DNA from: Thermoleophilia bacterium
GTDB lineage: Bacteria; Actinomycetota; Thermoleophilia; Gaiellales; Gaiellaceae
DNA length: 64,000 bases
Reading direction: 5' to 3'
Assembly (NCBI GenBank): GCA_040005095.1
Contig: JBDTZN010000003.1
Location: 12,089 to 76,088 of the forward strand
Each line of letters begins with the position of its first letter. Position 1 is the stretch's first letter. The notes under the pieces were generated by a model, which searched no databases, was not told where the DNA came from, and was given only the letters and a program-made list of their open reading frames with translations. A program made the translations under genes and the position numbers. This document shows positions 4,368-57,447 of this stretch, in pieces.

Positions 4368-5696
4368 CTACGCGAGCGCGACGCGGCGGCGTGTGACGGA
4401 GCCCACGGCAAGTGCGAGCACGAAGGCGGTGCCGAAGCTCGGCAGCGACGCGCCGCCGAAGGGCAGGGCGCTCGGGTGGAAGTGCTCCACGATGCTGGTC
4501 CACCACGACGGGCCGACCGGCGCGAGCCACTGGTAGAGCGCGAAGCCGGCGAGCCACGACGCGATCAGCTCGGGCCGCACTGCCGGCCCGTCGAAGAGCA
4601 CGTCCACGTCGTAGTGCCGGCCGGCGAGCAGCCAGTCCGCGAGCAGGACGCCGAAGAGCGGGACGAAGAATGAGCCGAGCAGGAACAGGAAGTCCTGGTA
4701 GTTCCGCAGGTCGATCACGAGCGCCCCGGCCGTCGCGACCGCGGCCACGCCCGCGATGAGCAGCCGCTGGGGGGCGCGCGGGAACGCGTTCTGCAAGGAC
4801 ACGGCTCCCGAGTAGACGTTCGCGAACGCCTCGTCGCTCTCGTCCACGGTCAGGGCGAGCAGGGCCAGGATCGACGCCAGGCCGCCGGCCGCGACCACTG
4901 CGGGAATCGCGGCCGCGTCGCCGAGGTCGCGTGTCAGCAGGAGGATCGCGCCGAGCAAGAACAGGCCCACGGTCGGCAGGAGGTATCCGATCGCGACGCC
5001 CCAGAAGGCGCTGCGCCGGTCGCGTGCGAAACGGGTGTAGTCCGCTGCGAGCGGCGTCCACGAGACGATGCTCGCGAGCACGAGGTCGACGCCCGGCCAG
5101 AACGCATCATGCCCGGTCCCCGGCTTCGACCAAACCGCGCCGACGTGCTGCCCGTGAACGGCCCACCACGCCAGGTACGCGAGCGAGGCGACGACGACGT
5201 AGACGGCGAACTTGCGGACGTAGCGGCGCACGAACCCGACCGGGCCGACGAAGGCGAGGGCCGTCGCGATCGCGCCCATCGCGACCGTCCAGAGCGGCTT
5301 GCCGCCGAAGCCGAAGACCTCTTGCGAGAGCGCGCTCGCCGCGGTGGCGATGATGATCAACTCGAAGACCGACCAGCCGAGGCATTGCAGGACGTTGAGC
5401 GCAGTGGGGACGAGCGACCCGCGTCGTCCGAGCGGCGCGCGCAACACGACCATCGCCGGCACGCGCGCGTCGGCGCCGATCATCCCTGCGACGCCGAGCA
5501 TCGCGTTGCCGACGATGCCCGCGACGAGGATCGCAGCGAACGCCCCGCCGAGCGAGAGCGCCGGGACGAGGAACGCGCCGGCGACGATCACGAGCAGCGA
5601 GACGGACAGGTTGCCCCAGAGCAGGAACGTGTCCAGGAACCCGAGCACGCGCAAGCGCTCCGGAACGGGCTCGATTCCCCAGTTAGGCGTCGCCAT
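4368..5696 (-). CDS. NCS1 (purine-cytosine permease/CytX-like) transporter
   Basis: A 442-aa polytopic membrane protein (MATPNWGIEPVPERLRVLGFLDTFLLWGNLSVSLLV...). It lies directly downstream of a TPP riboswitch. Confidence 0.85.
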   Translation of the reverse strand: MATPNWGIEPVPERLRVLGFLDTFLLWGNLSVSLLVIVAGAFLVPALSLGGAFAAILVAGIVGNAMLGVAGMIGADARVPAMVVLRAPLGRRGSLVPTALNVLQCLGWSVFELIIIATAASALSQEVFGFGGKPLWTVAMGAIATALAFVGPVGFVRRYVRKFAVYVVVASLAYLAWWAVHGQHVGAVWSKPGTGHDAFWPGVDLVLASIVSWTPLAADYTRFARDRRSAFWGVAIGYLLPTVGLFLLGAILLLTRDLGDAAAIPAVVAAGGLASILALLALTVDESDEAFANVYSGAVSLQNAFPRAPQRLLIAGVAAVATAGALVIDLRNYQDFLFLLGSFFVPLFGVLLADWLLAGRHYDVDVLFDGPAVRPELIASWLAGFALYQWLAPVGPSWWTSIVEHFHPSALPFGGASLPSFGTAFVLALAVGSVTRRRVALA

Positions 5697-5697
5697 T

Positions 5698-5783
5698 CGC
5701 GCTCCCTTCGCCGGTACGAACCGGATCAGGTTCTACGGGTGTGATCTCAGCCCCGAGCGGGGCACCCCGGTCACCGGAACTCT
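5698..5783 (-). promoter_or_regulatory. TPP (THI-box) riboswitch in the 5' leader of the NCS1 permease operon
   Basis: The minus-strand RNA reads CCGGGGUGCCCCGCUCGGGGCUGAGAUCACACCCGUAGAACCUGAUCCGGUUCGUACCGGCGAAGGGAGCGCGAAUG. It carries the conserved GGGGUGC, CUGAGA, ACCC, AACCUGAUC-GG and GCGAAGGGA blocks. The GGGAG Shine-Dalgarno lies inside the 3' conserved block, 5 nt before the AUG. Confidence 0.85.
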
Positions 5784-5829: not shown

Positions 5830-6204
5830 ATGGCGAAAGCTGTGTACACGGCCGGCGAGGCAGCCCGGGCTCTCGGCGTCAGTCTCGACACCCTGCGGCG
5901 CTGGGACCGGCAGGGACGCATCCGCGTCACGCGTGACACCGCGAACCGGCGCGTCGTCTCGGCCAGGGAAATCGAACGGCTGCGCGGCTCCGAGAGCCAC
6001 GGGTTGAGCGCTCGCAACCGGCTGTCCGGAGTGGTCGAGTCTGTGCGCGTCGACGGCCTGCTCGCCGAGGTGAAGATCGCGGTCACCGAGCCGGCGTCGA
6101 TCACGGCGATCGTCACTGCAGACGCCGTCGCCGACCTCGGGCTCGAACCCGGGATGCCGGCTTCCGCAGTCGTGAAGTCGACGTCGATCATGGTCGAGCG
6201 ATGA
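5830..6204 (+). CDS. MerR/excisionase-type HTH plus TOBE (molybdate-binding) domain regulator, ModE-like
   Basis: The N-terminus YTAGEAARALGVSLDTLRRWDRQGRI is the HTH. The C-terminal SARNRLSGVVESVRVDGLLAEVKIAV...AVVKSTSIMVE is a TOBE/Mop-like fold. An ATGA overlap joins it to modA. Confidence 0.8.
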   Translation: MAKAVYTAGEAARALGVSLDTLRRWDRQGRIRVTRDTANRRVVSAREIERLRGSESHGLSARNRLSGVVESVRVDGLLAEVKIAVTEPASITAIVTADAVADLGLEPGMPASAVVKSTSIMVER

Positions 6205-7732: not shown

Positions 7733-8700
7733 CGCTCGCGGCGGGCGCGGAGACTGTCGCGCTCGTCGGGCCGTCGGGTGCTGGGAAGACGACGCTGCTG
7801 CGTGCGGTTGCGGGGCTCGTGCGGCCCGCGCGTGGCCGTATCGCCTGCGGCGGCCGGGTCTGGTTCGACGGTGCCGGCGGTGTCGATCTCAGAGTGGAGG
7901 AACGCTCCGTCGGCTTCGTTTTTCAGGAATACGCGCTCTTCCCGCATCTCAACGTCGAGCGGAACGTCGCCTTCGGCGGCGCGCGCGACGGCATCCTCGC
8001 GCGGCTAGGGATTGCGCACCTGGCCAAGGCGCGGCCCGCGGACCTCTCTGGCGGCGAGCGCCAACGGGTTGCGCTTGCGCGCGCGCTCGCGCGAGGGCCG
8101 GAGGTGCTGCTGCTCGACGAGCCGATGGCCGCGCTCGACCCGCATACGCGCGGATCGGTGCGTGCCGAGCTGCACCAGCTCCTGCGCGAGCTCGAGCTGC
8201 CGGTGCTCCTCGTCACGCACGACTTCGAGGACGCCTGCTCGCTCGCCGAACGCGTCGGCGTGCTGGTCGACGGCCGGCTCCTCCAGCTCGCCACGCCCGA
8301 CGAGCTGCTGGCCGCTCCGGCCGACGCCTTCGTGGCGAGCTTCGCGGGCGGGAACGTCCTGCGCGGACACGTCAGGGGTCTGACCCCGGATGGCGCCCTG
8401 ACGGAGGTGACGCTCGCGGATGGGACGCTCGTGTACTCGACGGACCGGAGGGCGGCCGGCGAGGTCGCTCTGGTCGTGTATCCCTGGGCGGTCTCGGTCG
8501 CGCGCGAGGCCCCGGCCGACTCGGCGTTGAACCATGTCCGCGGCGAGATCGGGTCGCTCGTCACCATTGGCAATCGGGTGCGGGCTCGCGTCGGTCCGCT
8601 CACCGCCGAGGTCACGGTGGCATCCGTCGAGCGCCTCGGGCTCCGCGCCGGCGATCGCGTAGTCGCGAGCTTCAAGGCGACCGCAACCAGGCTCCTGTAG
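7675..8700 (+). CDS. modC: Molybdate ABC transporter ATP-binding protein with C-terminal TOBE domain
   Basis: It has Walker A GPSGAGKTT, the signature LSGGERQRVALARAL, Walker B LLLDEP and a C-terminal TOBE-like beta region. Confidence 0.9.
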   Translation: MDALELELTVPLRSFALELALAAGAETVALVGPSGAGKTTLLRAVAGLVRPARGRIACGGRVWFDGAGGVDLRVEERSVGFVFQEYALFPHLNVERNVAFGGARDGILARLGIAHLAKARPADLSGGERQRVALARALARGPEVLLLDEPMAALDPHTRGSVRAELHQLLRELELPVLLVTHDFEDACSLAERVGVLVDGRLLQLATPDELLAAPADAFVASFAGGNVLRGHVRGLTPDGALTEVTLADGTLVYSTDRRAAGEVALVVYPWAVSVAREAPADSALNHVRGEIGSLVTIGNRVRARVGPLTAEVTVASVERLGLRAGDRVVASFKATATRLL

Positions 8701-21884: not shown

Positions 21885-22577
21885 ATGACGAAAGCCCACA
21901 TGGCCGTCGCCCGCCAACCCGATCGAAGTCCCGACGAGTCGCCGTTCGCCCGGGCTCGGCTCCAGCGACAGTTGACGGTCGAGGCGGCTGCGCAGCGAGC
22001 CGGTTTGAGCCCCGATCAGGTCGAGTGGCTCGAGGACGGGCGGGTCTACCGCTTCCCGTCGACCGACGACGCGCTGGTCGCCGCGCTGTTGTATGCGACC
22101 GCCCTCGGCATCGACCAGCGGGAGGCGCGTGCGCTCGCCGGCCTGCCGGTCACCCCGCTCGTCGGAGGGAGCTCGCAGGCCAGGCTGATCGGTGTCGCAG
22201 CGTTGCTGGCCGCCCTCGCGGCGCTCGCCGGCGTGTTCTGGCTCCAGAGCGGGAGCGGGCCGAGCGGACGCTCGACGGCGGTGGTGACGCTGCCCCCCTC
22301 GTGGAAGATCTCGGTGGACGTCCTGAACGGCAGCGGCGACATCACCTGGACGCGCCAGATGGCGAGCCGGGTCGGTGCGCTCGCTTACCACGTCCAGCAC
22401 GTCGGACGCGCGGACAAGTTCGACTACCGGCGGACAGCGGTCTACTACGAGCCGGGCGGAGTTGCGGTGGCGATCCGCCTCGCGCGGCAGCTCGGCGTGG
22501 TGACGAAGCCGCTACCCGGTGGCTCGGACCCGCACCACGTCGTCGTGATCGTCGGCCCGCACCGCGGTCCGGCTTAG
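21885..22577 (+). CDS. HTH plus transmembrane plus LytR_C domain protein
   Basis: The RodZ/XRE-like HTH is RARLQRQLTVEAAAQRAGLSPDQVEWLE. A single TM helix follows. The C-terminal segment is VDVLNGSGDITWTRQMASRVGALAYHV...TAVYYEPG. Confidence 0.7.
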   Translation: MTKAHMAVARQPDRSPDESPFARARLQRQLTVEAAAQRAGLSPDQVEWLEDGRVYRFPSTDDALVAALLYATALGIDQREARALAGLPVTPLVGGSSQARLIGVAALLAALAALAGVFWLQSGSGPSGRSTAVVTLPPSWKISVDVLNGSGDITWTRQMASRVGALAYHVQHVGRADKFDYRRTAVYYEPGGVAVAIRLARQLGVVTKPLPGGSDPHHVVVIVGPHRGPA

Positions 22578-22586
22578 AGCAGAGGA

Positions 22587-22660
22587 GCTAAGGCGCCGCT
22601 TGCGGCGCCGTCTCAGGATTCGCGGCTCGGCCGCGGATCCGTCCGGGCTCCTTACCTCGC
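22587..22660 (+). repeat. Diverged third copy (plus orientation) of the stop-codon-proximal structured element
   Basis: The sequence is UAAGGCGCCGC-UU-GCGGCGCC GUCUCAGGAUU CGCGGC-UCG-GCCGCG GAUCC GUCCGGGCUCCUUACCUCG. It shares UAAGGCGCCGC, the two-hairpin layout and the G(U)C.G.GCUCC(C)UUACC tail with copies at 24.3 and 55.7 kb. Confidence 0.4.
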
Positions 22661-22669
22661 CGCCCGCCG

Positions 22670-22903
22670 TTAGAGCAACGGCGTGCGCAGAGCCGACAGC
22701 TTTTCCTTTAGCTGCGGCGGCATCTGCTCGGCGGCGGCCTGCCGCACGTAGCGGCGCAGGTTCACCTCGAAGCGATAGCGCTTGCGGCAGTACGAGCAGA
22801 GCTCGAGATGGGCTTCGGCCTCCAGCATCTCCGCGTTGGACAACTCACGGTCGAGGTACGGCTGAAGTACCTCCTCGCACTTCGCGCACGGATCAACGGC
22901 CAT
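22670..22903 (-). CDS. ZAS-family anti-sigma factor, RsrA/RshA-like
   Basis: Residues C6, C9, H32-x3-C36-x2-C39 (DPCAKCEE...HLELCSYC) match the family. The Cys-to-His spacing of 26 is as in RsrA. The gene overlaps the sigma gene 3' end by 11 nt. Confidence 0.8.
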   Translation of the reverse strand: MAVDPCAKCEEVLQPYLDRELSNAEMLEAEAHLELCSYCRKRYRFEVNLRRYVRQAAAEQMPPQLKEKLSALRTPLL

Positions 22904-24296: not shown

Positions 24297-24317
24297 GCTG
24301 AGAGTCTAGGGGCCGAA

Positions 24318-24409
24318 GCGCCGCTCACGCTTGGCGGATCGATAAGGGAGCGCAGACGGGCAGGCGGCAAGCCACCTGCCCTGAAACGGCGTCGCCGAGT
24401 CGACGCCTA
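24318..24409 (-). repeat. Structured non-coding element, copy A, beginning at the TAG of the GCS2 ligase gene and ending about 20 nt before the HMA gene
   Basis: The sense (minus) RNA reads UAG-GCGUCGACUCGGCGACGCC GUUUCA GGGCAGGUGGC-UU-GCCGCCUGCCC GUCUGCGCUCCCUUAUCGAUCCGCCAAGCGUGAGCGG.... A near-identical copy lies at 55700-55791. Confidence 0.7.
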
Positions 24410-25474
24410 GGCAAACGTTCTGGCCACAAGATCCGCCGCCGCTGCATGCGGATCGAGCGCGAGTTGGAGGTCGCCCTCGCACGACTCGGGGTCCAGCGCG
24501 TCGAGCAGCGGCTCGCCGGCGAGGAAACCGCGGAGCTCTTCCCACAGCTCGGGCACGTCGACGGCGCGGTCGCCGTCGGGATGGATCAGCTCGGCACGGG
24601 GCCCGAACCGCGATGCGGCCCAGCGATTCTGCGCGTAGTCGCCGCGCTGAGCGGGATCGACGGCGGCCGGCTCCTGGTCGAGCGCCCAGCGGCAGAGCTC
24701 GCGGATCAGGGCAACGAACGCGGTGGAGTGCGCGAGCGAGGTCGGCTGGTCGGGCATCCTGATCTCCAGCGTCCCGAGCTTGGGATGTGGGCGGACGTCC
24801 CACCAGATCCGCGTGTAGTCGGCGGTCACGCCGATCCGCATCAGCCGCTCGACCCAACTCTCCCACCCGGCGTAGGTGCCGAAGGGCGGGGGCCCTCCTG
24901 AGCGCGGCAGCTCCGCGAGGAGGAGGGCGCGGTTCGAGGCCATCCCCGTTGCACGCCCGACGAGGTACGGCGAGTTCGCGGAGAGCGCGAGCACGAGCGG
25001 CAGCCACGGGAGGATCGCCTCGAGCGCGGCGTAGCACTCGTCGGGGCCAGGCATCGCGACGTGGACGTGGAGGCCCTGCACCCCCTGGCGACGCGCAGAC
25101 ACGCCCGCGTAGTCGGCGAAGTCGGTGTAGCGCGGCTCCTGCACCACCGGCTGCTCCTCGGGGTCGGCGAATGGATGCGAGCCGGCGGCGGCGACCGTGA
25201 GCCCGTTCGCGGCGGCTGCGTCACGGGCTGCCAGCCTTAGCCCTCCGAGCGCGGCACCCGCCTCCGTGGCATCGGCGCACGGCTCGGTCGCGAGCTCGCA
25301 GACCGATGCGAAGAGCTCGGTCTTGACGACGCCGGGCAGGCCGCTCCCATCGAGCGAGCCGATCAGCTTGTCGACCTCGCCGACCTGCGCAAACGTGGTC
25401 GCGTCGAGGATCATCAGCTCCTCCTCGGCGCCGACCGACAGCGTCGGCCACGTGCCCCAACCGGCTTGGATCAT
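24407..25474 (-). CDS. Carboxylate-amine ligase, glutamate-cysteine ligase family 2 (YbdK-like)
   Basis: ATG 25474 overlaps the upstream stop (ATGA). LSVGAEEELMILD...GLHVHVAMP...SANSPY...WWDVRPHPKLGTLEIRMPD is typical of GCS2. Confidence 0.85.
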   Translation of the reverse strand: MIQAGWGTWPTLSVGAEEELMILDATTFAQVGEVDKLIGSLDGSGLPGVVKTELFASVCELATEPCADATEAGAALGGLRLAARDAAAANGLTVAAAGSHPFADPEEQPVVQEPRYTDFADYAGVSARRQGVQGLHVHVAMPGPDECYAALEAILPWLPLVLALSANSPYLVGRATGMASNRALLLAELPRSGGPPPFGTYAGWESWVERLMRIGVTADYTRIWWDVRPHPKLGTLEIRMPDQPTSLAHSTAFVALIRELCRWALDQEPAAVDPAQRGDYAQNRWAASRFGPRAELIHPDGDRAVDVPELWEELRGFLAGEPLLDALDPESCEGDLQLALDPHAAAADLVARTFA

Positions 25475-54790: not shown

Positions 54791-55690
54791 GTGGCGGAAG
54801 AGATCCGAATCTCGCGTCGGCCGAGCCTGAACGAACCGGTGTTGATCACTGCGTTTCGGGGCTGGAACGACGGCGGCCAGGGCGCTTCGCTTGCCGGCGG
54901 ATATCTCGCAAAGGTCTGGCGGGCGGCGCGGTTCGCCGAGATCGAGCCCGAGACCTTCTTCGACTTCCAGGCGACGCGGCCGCAAGTCTCGCTCGTCGAC
55001 GGGCTGACGCGGAAGATCGAATGGCCTGACAACGCCTTCTATCACGCGCGCATTCCGGGAACGGACCGCGATGCGGTCCTCCTGCTGGGGATCGAGCCGA
55101 ATCTCCGCTGGCGGACGTTCACCGATCTCATCGTCAGCCTCTCCACCGAGCTCGGCGTCGAGCTGGCGATCACGCTCGGCTCGCTCCTCGCCGACGTTCC
55201 GCACACGCGTCCGGCGCCGGTGACCGGGAGCGCGAGCGACCAGGCGCTCGTCGAGTCGATGGGCCTGCAGGCGTCGCGCTACGAGGGGCCGACCGGCATC
55301 GTCGGCGTGCTGCACGACGCGTGCAAGCAGTCAGGCATCCCGTCAGTCAGCCTCTGGGCCGCGGTACCGCATTACGTCTCGCTCGCGCCGAGCCCGCGGG
55401 CCGCGCATGCGCTCTGCGTGCGCCTCGGCGAGCTGCTCGAGGTGGAGGTCGAGACTGGAGAGCTGGCGGAGGCAGCCGAGACCTATTCGGAGCAGGTCAG
55501 CGAGGCGGTCGCCTCGGACGTCGACACCCAGACGTACGTCGAGGAGCTGGAGCAGCGCAGCGACGCGATCGACGAGGTCACGGAGGCGGAGATCCCCTCC
55601 GGCGACTCCCTCGCCGCCGAGCTGACGCGGTTCCTGCGCGAGCGCGAAGCGGGCGGCGAGTCGGATCCTCCGCGCGACCCGCCTTCCTAG
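54791..55690 (+). CDS. PAC2-family (proteasome assembly chaperone 2-like) protein
   Basis: LITAFRGWNDGGQGAS, LLLGIEPNLRW and YEGPTGIVGVL followed by an acidic C-terminal tail match the family. Confidence 0.8.
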   Translation: MAEEIRISRRPSLNEPVLITAFRGWNDGGQGASLAGGYLAKVWRAARFAEIEPETFFDFQATRPQVSLVDGLTRKIEWPDNAFYHARIPGTDRDAVLLLGIEPNLRWRTFTDLIVSLSTELGVELAITLGSLLADVPHTRPAPVTGSASDQALVESMGLQASRYEGPTGIVGVLHDACKQSGIPSVSLWAAVPHYVSLAPSPRAAHALCVRLGELLEVEVETGELAEAAETYSEQVSEAVASDVDTQTYVEELEQRSDAIDEVTEAEIPSGDSLAAELTRFLREREAGGESDPPRDPPS

Positions 55691-55699
55691 AGCCGTCTC

Positions 55700-55791
55700 G
55701 ACGCTCCCGCTTCGCGGCCCGGTAAGGGAGCGCAGACGGACAGGCGGCGGAGCCACCTGCCCTGGAACGACGCCGCAGAGGCGGCGCCTTA
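55700..55791 (-). repeat. Structured non-coding element, copy B, beginning at the TAA of dipZ in the convergent gap with the PAC2 gene
   Basis: The sense (minus) RNA reads UAA-GGCGCCGC-CUCU-GCGGCGUC GUUCCA GGGCAGGUGGC-UCC-GCCGCCUGUCC GUCUGCGCUCCCUUACCGGGCCGCGAAGCGGGAGCGUCGAGACGG. Confidence 0.7.
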
Positions 55792-57447
55792 GCCGAAGGT
55801 GAATGCGTAAGCCGAGAGGCCGGGCGAGAACCGCAGCTCGAGCACACCCTCCGTAGGCTTCGGGAGCGCCAGGAGGGTGTAGAGCCGGTCACCGTTGACG
55901 GCGATCATCCCTGAGGGGCGGCCGTCCACGAGCTTCTCGACCCGGCCTTTCCCGCCGAGCACGAGGTAGACCCGCTGAGCCTGGAAGTGCAGCCGCAGCC
56001 CTGCACCCGAGCCGGCGACGATCCGCTGCGGGCCGACAGTCCAGCCACCGTCATACGCCAGCTCGTTCAGCGCGAGCGACCGCGGGAACGCATAGCGGGC
56101 GGGCTTGTCCTCCTGCACGGGGAGACCCGCGTACCGGTCGAGCCGCTGGTAGCCGAGGTACGACTCCGGCGTCACCAGCTCGTGCGGGGTCTGGTCCGCC
56201 TTCGGGACGGCGACTGGGAGCCTCGTGCCCGGCCGCTCCGCGAGGAGCCGCCGGATCAGTCCCTCCGTCTGCGCGTACTCGCCTTCGCCGAAATGCGCGT
56301 GGCGCACGTGTCCGCGCCGGTCGATCAGGTACTCCGCGGGCCAGTACTGGTTCGCGTACGCGTTCCAGGTCCCGTAGTCGTTGTCGAGCGGCACCGGGTA
56401 GCGGACGCCGTAACGCTTCGCAGCAGAGCGAACGTTCGAGACGTCGTGCTCGAAGGAGAACTCCGGAGTATGCACGCCGACGACGACCAGACCGCTGGAG
56501 CGGTAACGGTCGTACCAGGCTGTCACGTGCGGCAGCGTCCGAAGACAGTTGATGCAGGAGTACGTCCAAAAGTCGATCAGGACGACCTTGCCACGCAGTC
56601 CCTTCAGCGTCAGCGCGCGGTCTCCCGGTGTGTTCAGCCAGTGCGAGATCCGTTGGAAGTCGGACGCTGCGCCGTAGTCGGCCAACTGCGCTCCGTGCGG
56701 CGAAGCGGCGCGCGCGACGCCGGCGGAGCCGCCGCGCAGAGAAGCCAGCTTCTTGCGGGCGGTCCCGTTCCGCTCGATCTTCCCCTGCAGGTAGTTCGTG
56801 TAGTCCCCGAGCGCGAGCTGGGCCTTCGTATCGAGGTGGAAGATGATCGCAAACGCCGAGGCGGCGATCAGGACACCGGCGGCGACCCGAACCTGCTGCG
56901 CGCGAGGCCGGATCGCACGGGCGGCGCGCTGCCCGCCGACGGCGATCGCGAGCATCGGAACCGCGGCTCCGGCCGCATATGCGATCGTCAGGAGGATCGT
57001 GTCGAGGCCGACGTGCATGCTCGCCGCCTTGACCGTGATGACGGCCAGGACGGGGCCGGCGCACGGCACGAAGACGAGCCCGAGGCTGGCGCCGAGTAGG
57101 AAGCCGCCGCCGAGGTTCCGTCCCGAGCGCCGGCCGAGCCGGGCAAATGGTCGCTCCAGCAGCAAGCCGAGCTGTGGGATCAGCAGTGACGCGGCGAGCA
57201 CGAAGAGCAAGGCCAGCGCCAGGTTGCGGAGAAACGTCTCCGGGAGCCCGAGCTGGTCGAGTAGCCAGGCGGCGACCAGCGTGAACACGGTGAAGCTCGC
57301 GGCGAGGCCGGCGACGATCGCGTAGGGCCGGCGAGGCTCGTCATCCGTTGCGCTGCCGGCGAGGAGGATCGGCAGGACGGGGAGGACGCACGGGGAGATC
57401 GCTGTGACCACGCCCGCGAGGAAGCCGATTCCGAGGAGAAGGAGCAT
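55789..57447 (-). CDS. dipZ: DipZ-like fusion: CcdA/DsbD-type thiol-disulfide transporter plus thioredoxin-like (CxxC) plus C-terminal beta domain
   Basis: The N-terminal CcdA membrane domain has AISPCVLPVLP and FVPCAGPVL. The redoxin domain has FWTYSCINCLRTLPHV. The product is 552 aa. Confidence 0.85.
   Translation of the reverse strand: MLLLLGIGFLAGVVTAISPCVLPVLPILLAGSATDDEPRRPYAIVAGLAASFTVFTLVAAWLLDQLGLPETFLRNLALALLFVLAASLLIPQLGLLLERPFARLGRRSGRNLGGGFLLGASLGLVFVPCAGPVLAVITVKAASMHVGLDTILLTIAYAAGAAVPMLAIAVGGQRAARAIRPRAQQVRVAAGVLIAASAFAIIFHLDTKAQLALGDYTNYLQGKIERNGTARKKLASLRGGSAGVARAASPHGAQLADYGAASDFQRISHWLNTPGDRALTLKGLRGKVVLIDFWTYSCINCLRTLPHVTAWYDRYRSSGLVVVGVHTPEFSFEHDVSNVRSAAKRYGVRYPVPLDNDYGTWNAYANQYWPAEYLIDRRGHVRHAHFGEGEYAQTEGLIRRLLAERPGTRLPVAVPKADQTPHELVTPESYLGYQRLDRYAGLPVQEDKPARYAFPRSLALNELAYDGGWTVGPQRIVAGSGAGLRLHFQAQRVYLVLGGKGRVEKLVDGRPSGMIAVNGDRLYTLLALPKPTEGVLELRFSPGLSAYAFTFG

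What the first reader, a model, noticed from the sequence alone, without database searches (positions are those of the whole stretch)
55700..55791. Copy B of the structured element: wobble pairs assign the functional strand, and both strong copies trail thiol/redox genes
In hairpin 2, plus-strand pairs c24365/a24374 (copy A), and a55740/c55760 and c55745/a55755 (copy B), are C-A mismatches on the plus strand. They become G-U wobbles on the minus strand. Hairpin 1 of copy B likewise has one G-U only in the minus sense. The RNA structure is therefore better on the minus strand, the coding strand of the upstream genes.

Copy B starts at the TAA of dipZ (thiol-disulfide transporter/thioredoxin fusion). 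It lies in a convergent gap, so it is not a 5' leader there. Copy A starts at the TAG of a glutamate-cysteine-ligase-family gene.

This suggests a 3'-UTR module, such as a terminator, a processing site or a 3'-UTR-derived sRNA, rather than a riboswitch. The conserved single-stranded GCUCCCUUA tract resembles an anti-Shine-Dalgarno-like sequence.
Basis: inference. Interest (0 to 1): 0.6.

Follow-up and report, generated by a model that had tools for sequence, protein, structure and literature searches.

The report
Small mobile hairpin repeat, not regulator
The 98-base structured stretch after the dipZ-like gene is one copy of a roughly 100-base mobile repeat that has landed on stop codons throughout the genomes of some uncultured soil Gaiellaceae; its hairpins do fold better on one strand, but it is not tied to thiol or redox genes.

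Summary
Copy B (55691-55788) exactly fills a convergent gap.

The strand bias holds across the family. Wobbles possible only in that sense outnumber the opposite kind 33:9 in this genome and 73:5 in relatives. That sense is more stable in 99 of 125 cores. Both stems covary strongly.

- The element has at least 39 copies here and occurs in 48 of 150 other Gaiellaceae genomes sampled. None of 16 genomes from other families of the order has it.
- It lies in either orientation relative to its neighbour genes (tandem 13 versus 13).
- Its neighbour genes have unrelated functions.
- Copy A is missing from the same gene junction in two congeners.
- Copy B's site is empty in one congener and holds a remnant in another. 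Forty-eight other dipZ loci lack it.
- About 20 of 29 sites filled in congeners are empty here.

It is therefore a MITE-like mobile repeat that targets TA/CTAG stop codons. An earlier agent of this scan reached the same reading for copy A.

Two things remain open. No mobilising enzyme was found. The strand bias is independent of gene direction and of chromosome position, and is unexplained.

The parts
55691..55788 (-). Copy B of the repeat (type I), filling the whole gap between two convergent stop codons. The minus strand is the better-folding ('R') sense.
   Evidence: (CM 72.8 bits)
55769..55788 (-). Hairpin 3: 7 bp, first hairpin in the minus sense, directly after the dipZ-like TAA. Contains a55770/c55787, which is G-U on the minus strand.
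55738..55762 (-). Hairpin 2: 10-11 bp, the most strongly covarying stem of the family. Contains a55740/c55760 and c55745/a55755, which are G-U on the minus strand.
55733..55737 (.). CAGAC motif (GUCUG on the minus strand) at the foot of hairpin 2. CAGAC or a single-base variant (CGGAC in copy C, CCGAC in one other copy) is present in all 30 aligned copies of this genome, of both subtypes.
55723..55731 (.). TAAGGGAGC, the type I module. It is GCUCCCUUA on the minus strand (anti-SD-like) and SD-like on the plus strand. In copy B it pairs with 55702-55708.
55693..55739 (-). Left arm, forming hairpin 1 in a long form specific to copy B. It has one G-U in the minus sense only.
55688..55690 (+). TAG stop of the PAC2-family gene 54791-55690, at the left edge of the element.
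55789..55791 (-). TAA stop of the DsbD_TM-thioredoxin fusion gene 55789-57447, at the right edge of the element.
24306..24411 (-). Copy A: insert 24311-24406 flanked by a direct repeat CTAGG (24306-24310 and 24407-24411). It lies between the GCS2 gene and the HMA gene on the minus strand.
22574..22677 (+). Copy C: insert 22582-22669 flanked by an 8-bp direct repeat TTAGAGCA (22574-22581 and 22670-22677). Here the better-folding sense is the window plus strand. It sits in a convergent gap between the LytR_C and zf-HC2 genes.

Best explanation
Copy B is one insertion of a non-coding, non-autonomous mobile repeat of about 100 bp, of the MITE/REP kind. The family is confined to part of the uncultured soil family Gaiellaceae.

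Shown:
- The family has dozens of copies per genome, in two subtypes. The subtypes share hairpins 2 and 3 and differ in the left module.
- It is patchily distributed among genera and also forms head-to-tail arrays.
- Copies sit on stop codons, at tandem or convergent gene junctions and in either orientation.
- Insertion is polymorphic between congeneric genomes. Filled sites carry a short direct repeat of the target that usually includes the TA(G/A) of the stop codon, so both neighbouring reading frames stay closed.
- The two internal stems are kept by compensatory changes. They tolerate almost only those mismatches that are G-U (G-T) on one strand, the minus strand for copies A and B. This holds whatever the direction of neighbouring genes.

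Inferred:
- Copies land at stop codons because TA, and especially CTAG, is very rare in this 70% G+C genome and is concentrated at stops.
- The strand-specific fold is a property of the element's own life cycle, that is, a step in which that strand is single-stranded. It does not come from co-transcription with a particular host gene.
- Any effect on dipZ or the PAC2 gene is a by-product: a GC-rich double hairpin added to the mRNA 3' end.

The mobilising enzyme is unknown.
For: Copy number: 32 copies by nhmmer and 39 by the covariance model in the 2.49-Mb draft.

Distribution:
- 12 of 24 and then 48 of 150 genomes of the family have it.
- 0 of 16 genomes in other families of the order have it.
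- Counts per genome run from 0 to at least 108.

Tandem arrays have periods of 102-103 nt and 151 nt.

Covariation: 15 of 19 pairs show double changes, with 0 of 500 shuffles as high.

Wobble bias:
- 33:9 in this genome and 73:5 in 97 distinct cores of relatives, the same in both tandem-gene settings.
- 68:14 when counted by distinct stem haplotypes.
- One sense is more stable in 99 of 125 cores, by a mean of 3.2 kcal/mol.

Empty sites:
- Copy A is absent in G001 and G002, which have a single CTAGG there.
- Copy B's site is empty in G002 and holds a truncated remnant in G001.
- Copy C is filled in G001 and empty in G002 and G003.
- Of 29 collinear sites filled in congeners, 5 are filled and about 20 are empty here. 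The size difference is about 80-105 nt, mostly 96-105.

Stop codons abut both termini.

CTAG occurs at 0.2 of expectation, and 29% of CTAGs lie on predicted stops.

The organism is Gaiellaceae, from record titles of the closest dipZ loci.
Against: - No cognate autonomous element was found.
  - IS630-type DDE_3 is absent from five element-rich genomes, one of them 98% complete.
  - IS5/IS4-type and rve genes are sporadic, and the IS5/IS4-type ones examined have unrelated ends.
- Terminal inverted repeats are short and imperfect: 11 of 13 in one array unit, 8 of 12 in copy A, weak in copy B.
- Flanking direct repeats vary in length: 5, 5, 8, 9 and about 15 nt. A single DDE transposase would not give this.
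- A cut-and-paste MITE gives no reason for strand-specific wobble or for covarying internal stems.
- No expression data could be consulted.
Confidence: 0.8

Rival explanations
1. One reading: a minus-sense 3'-UTR module (terminator, processing site or 3'-UTR-derived small RNA) that serves the thiol/redox genes it trails, with an anti-SD-like effector tract.
For: - Copies A and B follow GCS2 and dipZ-like genes on the strand that folds better.
- The tract GCUCCCUUA resembles the 16S rRNA 3' end (own knowledge).
Against: - Orientation relative to genes is random.
- Neighbour genes are unrelated in function.
- Both insertions are missing from orthologous sites in congeners, and from 48 other dipZ loci.
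- The tract is limited to one subtype and is often paired.
- There is no U-tailed terminator.
Confidence: 0.04
2. A host-selected RNA structure. The repeat spreads as mobile DNA, but its hairpins are maintained in place because they stabilise or terminate transcripts. This would be a REP/ERIC-like role, acting mainly in the better-folding sense.
For: - Copies lie at gene 3' ends and are rare between divergent genes: 4 of 46 called contexts in relatives, 2 of about 27 here.
- One orthologous pair shows an A-T to C-G double change in hairpin 2. Two orthologues each acquired a different wobble of the favoured kind.
- GC-rich hairpins without U tails can end transcripts in actinobacteria (own knowledge).
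Against: - The wobble bias is equally strong where both neighbours run in the opposite sense: 10:1 and 8:3. There the favoured strand would be antisense.
- Only five orthologous pairs were compared.
- About two thirds of sites filled in congeners are empty here, so most copies are dispensable.
Confidence: 0.2
3. The element moves through a single-stranded intermediate of the favoured strand. This could be single-stranded DNA handled by an HUH/Y1 enzyme of the IS200/IS605-RAYT kind, or RNA copied by a reverse transcriptase. That would explain both the strand-specific fold and the variable flanking repeats.
For: - The strand bias is intrinsic to the element.
- Flanking repeats vary in length.
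- Y1_Tnp genes are present in all 10 genomes with 7 or more copies.
Against: - The eleven Y1 genes examined carry no copy of this element next to them. Nine have their own, unrelated palindromes beside them, on both flanks in three. The genes also occur in 8 of 12 element-free genomes of the family.
- Orientation alternates all round two closed chromosomes, 27:23 and 18:16. There is no two-domain pattern such as lagging-strand targeting would give.
- There is no link to local GC skew.
- Reverse transcriptase was found in only 1 of 12 element-bearing relatives, and not in this genome.
- TnpB was found in none of the element-bearing genomes.
Confidence: 0.1
4. A multicopy small-RNA gene family transcribed from its own promoter.
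For: - Conserved structure and strand bias.
- Invariant unpaired CAGAC/GUCUG motif.
Against: - No promoter-like site in or beside the three window copies.
- No conserved sequence upstream of the favoured sense, because that flank is the neighbouring gene's stop codon.
- No Rfam family matches.
Confidence: 0.03

Closest known systems
Correia elements (CREE/NEMIS) of Neisseria, and similar bacterial MITEs such as RUP and ERIC (review PMC10969869; PMC2229807)
   Same: - About 100-150 bp, non-coding, with dozens to hundreds of dispersed copies.
- Inverted termini.
- TA-containing target whose duplication leaves TAG/TAA at the ends.
- Insertion polymorphism between strains.
- Transcripts fold into stable hairpins that can alter mRNA fate.
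   Different: - 70% G+C host.
- Termini are only weakly inverted.
- The two conserved hairpins are internal, not formed by the termini.
- Stems covary and show a one-strand wobble bias.
- Flanking repeats vary from 5 to about 15 nt.
- Two subtypes share a core but differ in the left module.
IS630/Tc1-mariner elements and their MITEs, which insert at TA within CTAG (Tenzen and Ohtsubo 1991, as cited in PMC2170065)
   Same: CTAG/TA at the junctions of the cleanest filled and empty pairs: copy A and L036.
   Different: - No DDE_3 transposase in five element-rich genomes.
- Several insertions have repeats longer than TA.
REP/BIME and REPIN elements with their RAYT (Y1) transposases (PMC2817692, PMC3116915)
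   Same: - GC-rich extragenic palindromes at gene 3' ends, forming arrays.
- TAG next to a hairpin at each end.
- RAYT-like genes are present in the same genomes.
   Different: - Nine of the eleven RAYT-like genes examined have other palindromes beside them, for example GGGGACTGTCCCC and GGTGACTGTCACGTGACAGTCACC. None carries a copy of this element next to it.
- The unit is about 100 nt with three different hairpins, not a doublet of one REP.
Mycobacterial interspersed repetitive units (MIRU; own knowledge, Supply et al. 1997)
   Same: - Actinobacterial.
- Units sit between genes of operons, overlap the stop codon of the upstream gene, and occur as tandem arrays.
   Different: - MIRUs are oriented with the operon and carry small ORFs. 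This element lies in either orientation.
- This element is strongly structured and is shown here to be gained or lost at single sites.

Membership tests
MITE (miniature inverted-repeat transposable element) | Small (under about 300 bp), non-coding, many dispersed copies | tested here: met
   About 100 nt. 39 copies in this genome and up to at least 108 in a relative.
MITE (miniature inverted-repeat transposable element) | Presence/absence polymorphism at orthologous sites | tested here: met
   Copies A, B and C, plus about 20 of 29 congener sites.
MITE (miniature inverted-repeat transposable element) | Terminal inverted repeats | tested here: inconclusive
   11 of 13 in the G007 array unit, 8 of 12 in copy A, weak in copy B and in type II copies.
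MITE (miniature inverted-repeat transposable element) | Target-site duplication of fixed length | tested here: not met
   Flanking direct repeats of 5, 5, 8, 9 and about 15 nt. Many junctions are too diverged to read.
MITE (miniature inverted-repeat transposable element) | Cognate autonomous IS with the same ends | tested here: not met
   Not found among the DDE_3, DDE_Tnp_1, DDE_Tnp_1_2 and rve loci examined. Most genomes are incomplete drafts, but one is 98% complete.
IS630/Tc1-mariner-derived MITE | TA duplicated at insertion, with a DDE_3 transposase in the host | tested here: not met
   CTAG/TA is seen at some junctions, but there is no DDE_3 in 5 genomes and some repeats are longer.
REP/REPIN mobilised by RAYT | The RAYT gene is flanked by the same repeat | tested here: not met
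   No copy of this element lies next to any of the 11 Y1 genes examined in 6 genomes. Nine have unrelated palindromes beside them.
IS200/IS605-type single-strand transposition | Orientation bias relative to replication direction | tested here: not met
   Strands alternate along two closed chromosomes, 27:23 and 18:16. There is no link with GC skew.
Intrinsic (Rho-independent) terminator | GC-rich hairpin followed by a U tract | tested here: not met
   No such site on either strand in copies A, B or C.
Any Rfam family (riboswitch, sRNA, ribozyme) | Covariance-model match | tested here: not met
   No match at gathering score in the window. Only chance-level hits at E up to 10 on copy B.
3'-UTR cis element or 3'-UTR-derived sRNA | Constant sense relative to the upstream gene, and conservation with that gene | tested here: not met
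   Tandem contexts 13 versus 13. Absent from 48 dipZ orthologue loci.

The most novel reading that the evidence does not exclude
The repeat may represent a kind of small mobile element whose spread depends on one specific strand folding into two hairpins. It has no transposase of any tested family, no link to replication direction and no reverse transcriptase. It inserts with a variable-length target duplication that rebuilds the stop codons, and even the last codons, of the genes it lands in. That would point to a mobilisation mechanism not yet described for bacterial MITE-like repeats.
Probability: 0.15. Interest if true: 0.7.

Novelty: new member of a known kind. Interest (0 to 1): 0.4.

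Why it matters
For annotation:
- These roughly 100-nt structured stretches in Gaiellaceae genomes should be masked as repeats. They should not be read as gene-specific regulators.
- They also break assemblies; many copies lie at contig ends.

For mobile-DNA biology, the family is a clean case of three things:
- A stop-codon-seeking repeat in a high-G+C genome.
- Abundant filled and empty site pairs among uncultured congeners.
- A strong one-strand wobble signature that none of the tested explanations (co-transcription with neighbour genes, replication direction, reverse transcription) accounts for.

If that signature reflects the mobilisation step, it could lead to the still unknown enzymes that move orphan MITEs.

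Tried and rejected
- **Rfam:** nothing at gathering score or at permissive thresholds.
- **RAYT/Y1 transposase as mobiliser:**
  - Five Y1 genes here and others in relatives carry no copy of this element next to them; most have unrelated palindromes beside them.
  - They also occur in element-free genomes.
- **IS630 DDE_3:** none found.
- **IS5/IS4-type:** found only in G009 and G016, with unrelated ends.
- **rve:** sporadic. One copy lies near an rve gene, but as an ordinary convergent-gap insertion.
- **Reverse transcriptase:** in 1 of 12 element-bearing relatives; none in this genome.
- **TnpB (omega-RNA idea):** none.
- **Replication-strand bias:**
  - Local GC skew and gene-strand fraction are uninformative in G016 and in this genome.
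  - Two closed genomes show alternating strands.
- **Long target duplications as a general rule:** only a modest excess over shuffled pairings once arrays are set aside.
- **Promoter and U-tailed terminator scans:** negative.
- **Partial copies as ends of a longer autonomous element:** nothing found.
- **Hammerhead-like reading of CUGA/GUC:** considered by eye and dropped, because the core is incomplete.
- **Earlier-findings look-up by sequence:** returned nothing.

Full report
**Terms.** "F sense" is the window plus strand of copies A and B. "R sense" is its complement. G000 is the genome the window comes from. G001-G003 are genomes of the same genus.

**1.

Copy B occupies 55691-55788. It lies exactly between two stop codons:
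- TAG 55688-55690 ends a PAC2-family gene on the plus strand.
- TAA 55789-55791 ends a DsbD_TM/AhpC-TSA/Thioredoxin_10 fusion, the dipZ-like gene, on the minus strand.

Copy A (24306-24411) follows the TAG of a GCS2 gene. It precedes an HMA-domain gene on the same minus strand.

The three listed C-A mismatches are at the stated coordinates, in an otherwise Watson-Crick hairpin 2. Copy B has a further one in hairpin 3, a55770/c55787.

| Copy | Minus sense | Plus sense |
|---|---|---|
| B | -57.3 kcal/mol (z -2.68) | -48.4 (z -0.87) |
| A | -49.0 (z -2.50) | -47.6 (z -1.36) |

No Rfam family matches.

**2. It is a large repeat family**

- Iterated nhmmer finds 32 copies in the 2.49-Mb, 208-contig, 69.5% G+C draft genome.
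- A covariance model (R1) finds 39 copies.
- A third window copy lies at 22574-22677 in the opposite orientation.

There are two subtypes. Both share hairpin 2, hairpin 3 and a CAGAC motif.
- Type I has the left module GGTAAGGGAGCG, as in copies A, B and C.
- Type II has the palindromic module TCGACCGGTC.

The stems covary strongly. Fifteen of 19 pairs show changes on both sides, in 72 cells, and none of 500 shuffles reaches this. Sliding the 3' partners drops pairing from 88% to about 37-43%.

**3. The strand call generalises**

Mismatches that can be G-U only in the R sense, against those that can be G-U only in the F sense:

| Data set | R only | F only |
|---|---|---|
| This genome | 33 | 9 |
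| 97 distinct cores from relatives | 73 | 5 |
| Distinct stem haplotypes | 68 | 14 |

- The R sense is more stable in 99 of 125 distinct cores, by a mean of 3.2 kcal/mol.
- One position of hairpin 2 is C-A in 35 of 105 relatives' copies, on 22 different stem backgrounds.

**4. The strand is not tied to the neighbouring genes**

I called coding strands with a codon log-odds score. Contexts by the sense of the two neighbour genes:

| Context | This genome | Relatives |
|---|---|---|
| Tandem, both F | about 10 | 13 |
| Tandem, both R | 7-9 | 13 |
| Convergent | 6 | 16 |
| Divergent | 2 | 4 |

The wobble bias is the same where both neighbours run F (10:1 and 8:3) as where both run R (11:1 and 8:0).

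So copies prefer gene 3' ends but take either orientation. The fold bias belongs to the element itself.

**5. There is no thiol theme**

- Genes abutting ten other copies encode HD, MFS, glutamine synthetase, epimerase, aminotransferase III, CoA ligase, CorC/CBS, M48 peptidase, ABC permease and ATP sulfurylase domains.
- The closest dipZ relatives are labelled Gaiellaceae MAGs.
- Forty-eight such loci from Gaiellaceae/Gaiellales have no copy within 1.5 kb.

**6. It is, or recently was, mobile**

*Distribution*
- 12 of 24 and then 48 of 150 genomes of the family have it, in 32 of 89 genera.
- None of 16 genomes from other families of the order has it.
- Counts per genome run from 0 to at least 108.
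- Head-to-tail arrays occur, with periods of 102-103 nt and 151 nt. One array mixes type I and type II units.

*The three window copies*
- **Copy A.** G001 and G002 have ...AGTCTAGGCAAAGG... at the GCS2-HMA junction. The window has CTAGG, a 96-nt insert, then CTAGG again.
- **Copy B.** G002 has only TAGCCGGCTCTTAGCCG between the two stops. G001 keeps just the hairpin 3 end.
- **Copy C.** It is filled in G001 and empty in G002 and G003. It is flanked by an 8-bp repeat TTAGAGCA that restores both overlapping stop codons.

*Sites filled in congeners*
- Of 29 collinear sites, 5 are filled and about 20 are empty in this genome.
- The size differences are about 80-105 nt, mostly 96-105.

**7. Why stop codons**

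- TA occurs at 0.45 of expectation and CTAG at 0.2 of expectation.
- 29% of all CTAGs lie on predicted stop codons.
- Gene stops lie at both termini in most copies.
- The junctions read TAG, TAA or TGA on whichever strand a gene arrives.
- Preference for TA within CTAG is known for IS630 (Tenzen and Ohtsubo 1991, cited in PMC2170065).

**8. What does not fit a plain MITE**

- Termini are only weakly inverted.
- Flanking repeats vary: 5, 5, 8, 9 and about 15 nt.
- In one case both copies of the repeat encode Gly-Ser-Val-Lys-stop, with synonymous differences between them.
- No mobiliser was found:

| Candidate | Result |
|---|---|
| DDE_3 (IS630 type) | absent from five element-rich genomes |
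| IS5/IS4-type | sporadic, with unrelated ends |
| rve | sporadic; one lies beside a copy as an ordinary convergent-gap insertion |
| RAYT-like Y1 genes | common, but none has a copy of this element next to it; most have other palindromes beside them; also in element-free genomes |
| Reverse transcriptase | in 1 of 12 element-bearing relatives; none in this genome |
| TnpB | in none of the element-bearing genomes |

- Orientation alternates around two closed chromosomes, 27:23 and 18:16.
- Orientation does not follow local GC skew.

The cause of the one-strand fold bias is therefore unresolved.

Five orthologous filled pairs hint at some maintenance in place: one compensatory double change, and several new wobbles of the favoured kind. 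The numbers are small.

**9. Limits**

- Gene calls are my own crude ones.
- Most genomes are fragmented MAGs.
- Copies are related by descent, so the counts overstate independence.
- The relatives' alignment was fitted to a model built from this genome's copies.

**10. Verdict**

- The proposed function is not right.
- Copy B is an ordinary insertion of a previously undescribed MITE-like repeat family of Gaiellaceae. An earlier agent of this scan gave the same reading for copy A.
- The strand-specific wobble, independent of gene context, and the variable flanking repeats are the parts worth a specialist's attention.

Noticed in passing
G000 contigs C182:3458-3985, C40, C36, C33, C99 (loci L001-L005); relatives L079-L085: Five RAYT-like Y1_Tnp genes in a 2.5-Mb genome. 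Three of the five, and six of the seven examined in relatives, have their own REP-like palindromes beside them, for example GGGGACTGTCCCC, GTGCCTGGCAC and GGTGACTGTCACGTGACAGTCACC. Several REP/RAYT systems seem to coexist in these Gaiellaceae.
   Followed up: partly
G016 contigs C6 420-520 kb, C7 415-545 kb, C3 75-135 kb, C5 225-265 kb (loci L152-L171): In this 7-contig genome the copies cluster in a few regions and keep one orientation within each region, for example 5 of 6 loci minus on C6 and 6 of 6 plus on C7. Neither GC skew nor gene strand explains this. Two closed genomes do not show it.
   Followed up: partly
L047 (G009:C63:55699-56090), L039 (G007:C41:4216-4511), L041 (G016:C6:504991-505380): Head-to-tail arrays of three or four units. 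The G007 array joins three type I units to one type II unit. The G016 units carry about 50 extra bases. The G009 array ends directly at an AAGGAGG Shine-Dalgarno and GTG start of the next gene.
   Followed up: partly
L121 (G003:C62) against G000:C155:7019-7086: The element is flanked by two copies of the last four codons plus stop of an ABC permease gene (GSVK-stop). The two copies differ only at synonymous sites, so the duplicated gene end next to the element is under protein-level constraint.
   Followed up: no
G002:C386 about 5932-5943 (L064); G000:C172:22236-22293; G000:C155:21424-21474; G000:C101:3895-3948: Several 'empty' sites carry the target motif twice a few bases apart: TAGCCG..TAGCCG, CTAGG-GAT-CTAGG, CTAGCTAG and TCGAGA-TCTAAA. 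These may be excision footprints rather than never-occupied sites.
   Followed up: no
Type II copies, e.g. G000:C137:6035-6116 and C98:23126-23213: Read in the better-folding sense, type II units start at a TGA stop and end with GGAGG or GGAAG 12-15 nt before the ATG of the next gene. In that orientation the unit supplies a ribosome-binding site to the downstream cistron.
   Followed up: no
G000:C43:4430-4514: A diverged copy lacking the GUCUG motif sits between a 321-aa gene and a downstream run whose N-termini look like the glycolytic gap-pgk-tpi genes (by eye; no family search was run).
   Followed up: no
G009:C137:27416-27583 (L149): In this relative the gap between the PAC2 and dipZ orthologues is about 1 kb and holds a partial DDE_Tnp_1 transposase match. 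The same convergent junction has therefore been hit by a different mobile element.
   Followed up: no
window 5687-5779 (-): TPP riboswitch at 64 bits, the only Rfam match in the window.
   Followed up: no
L063 (G003:C68 about 8262-8511): At copy B's site this congener has about 250 nt of unrelated sequence that includes a masked run of N. Its state could not be read.
   Followed up: no
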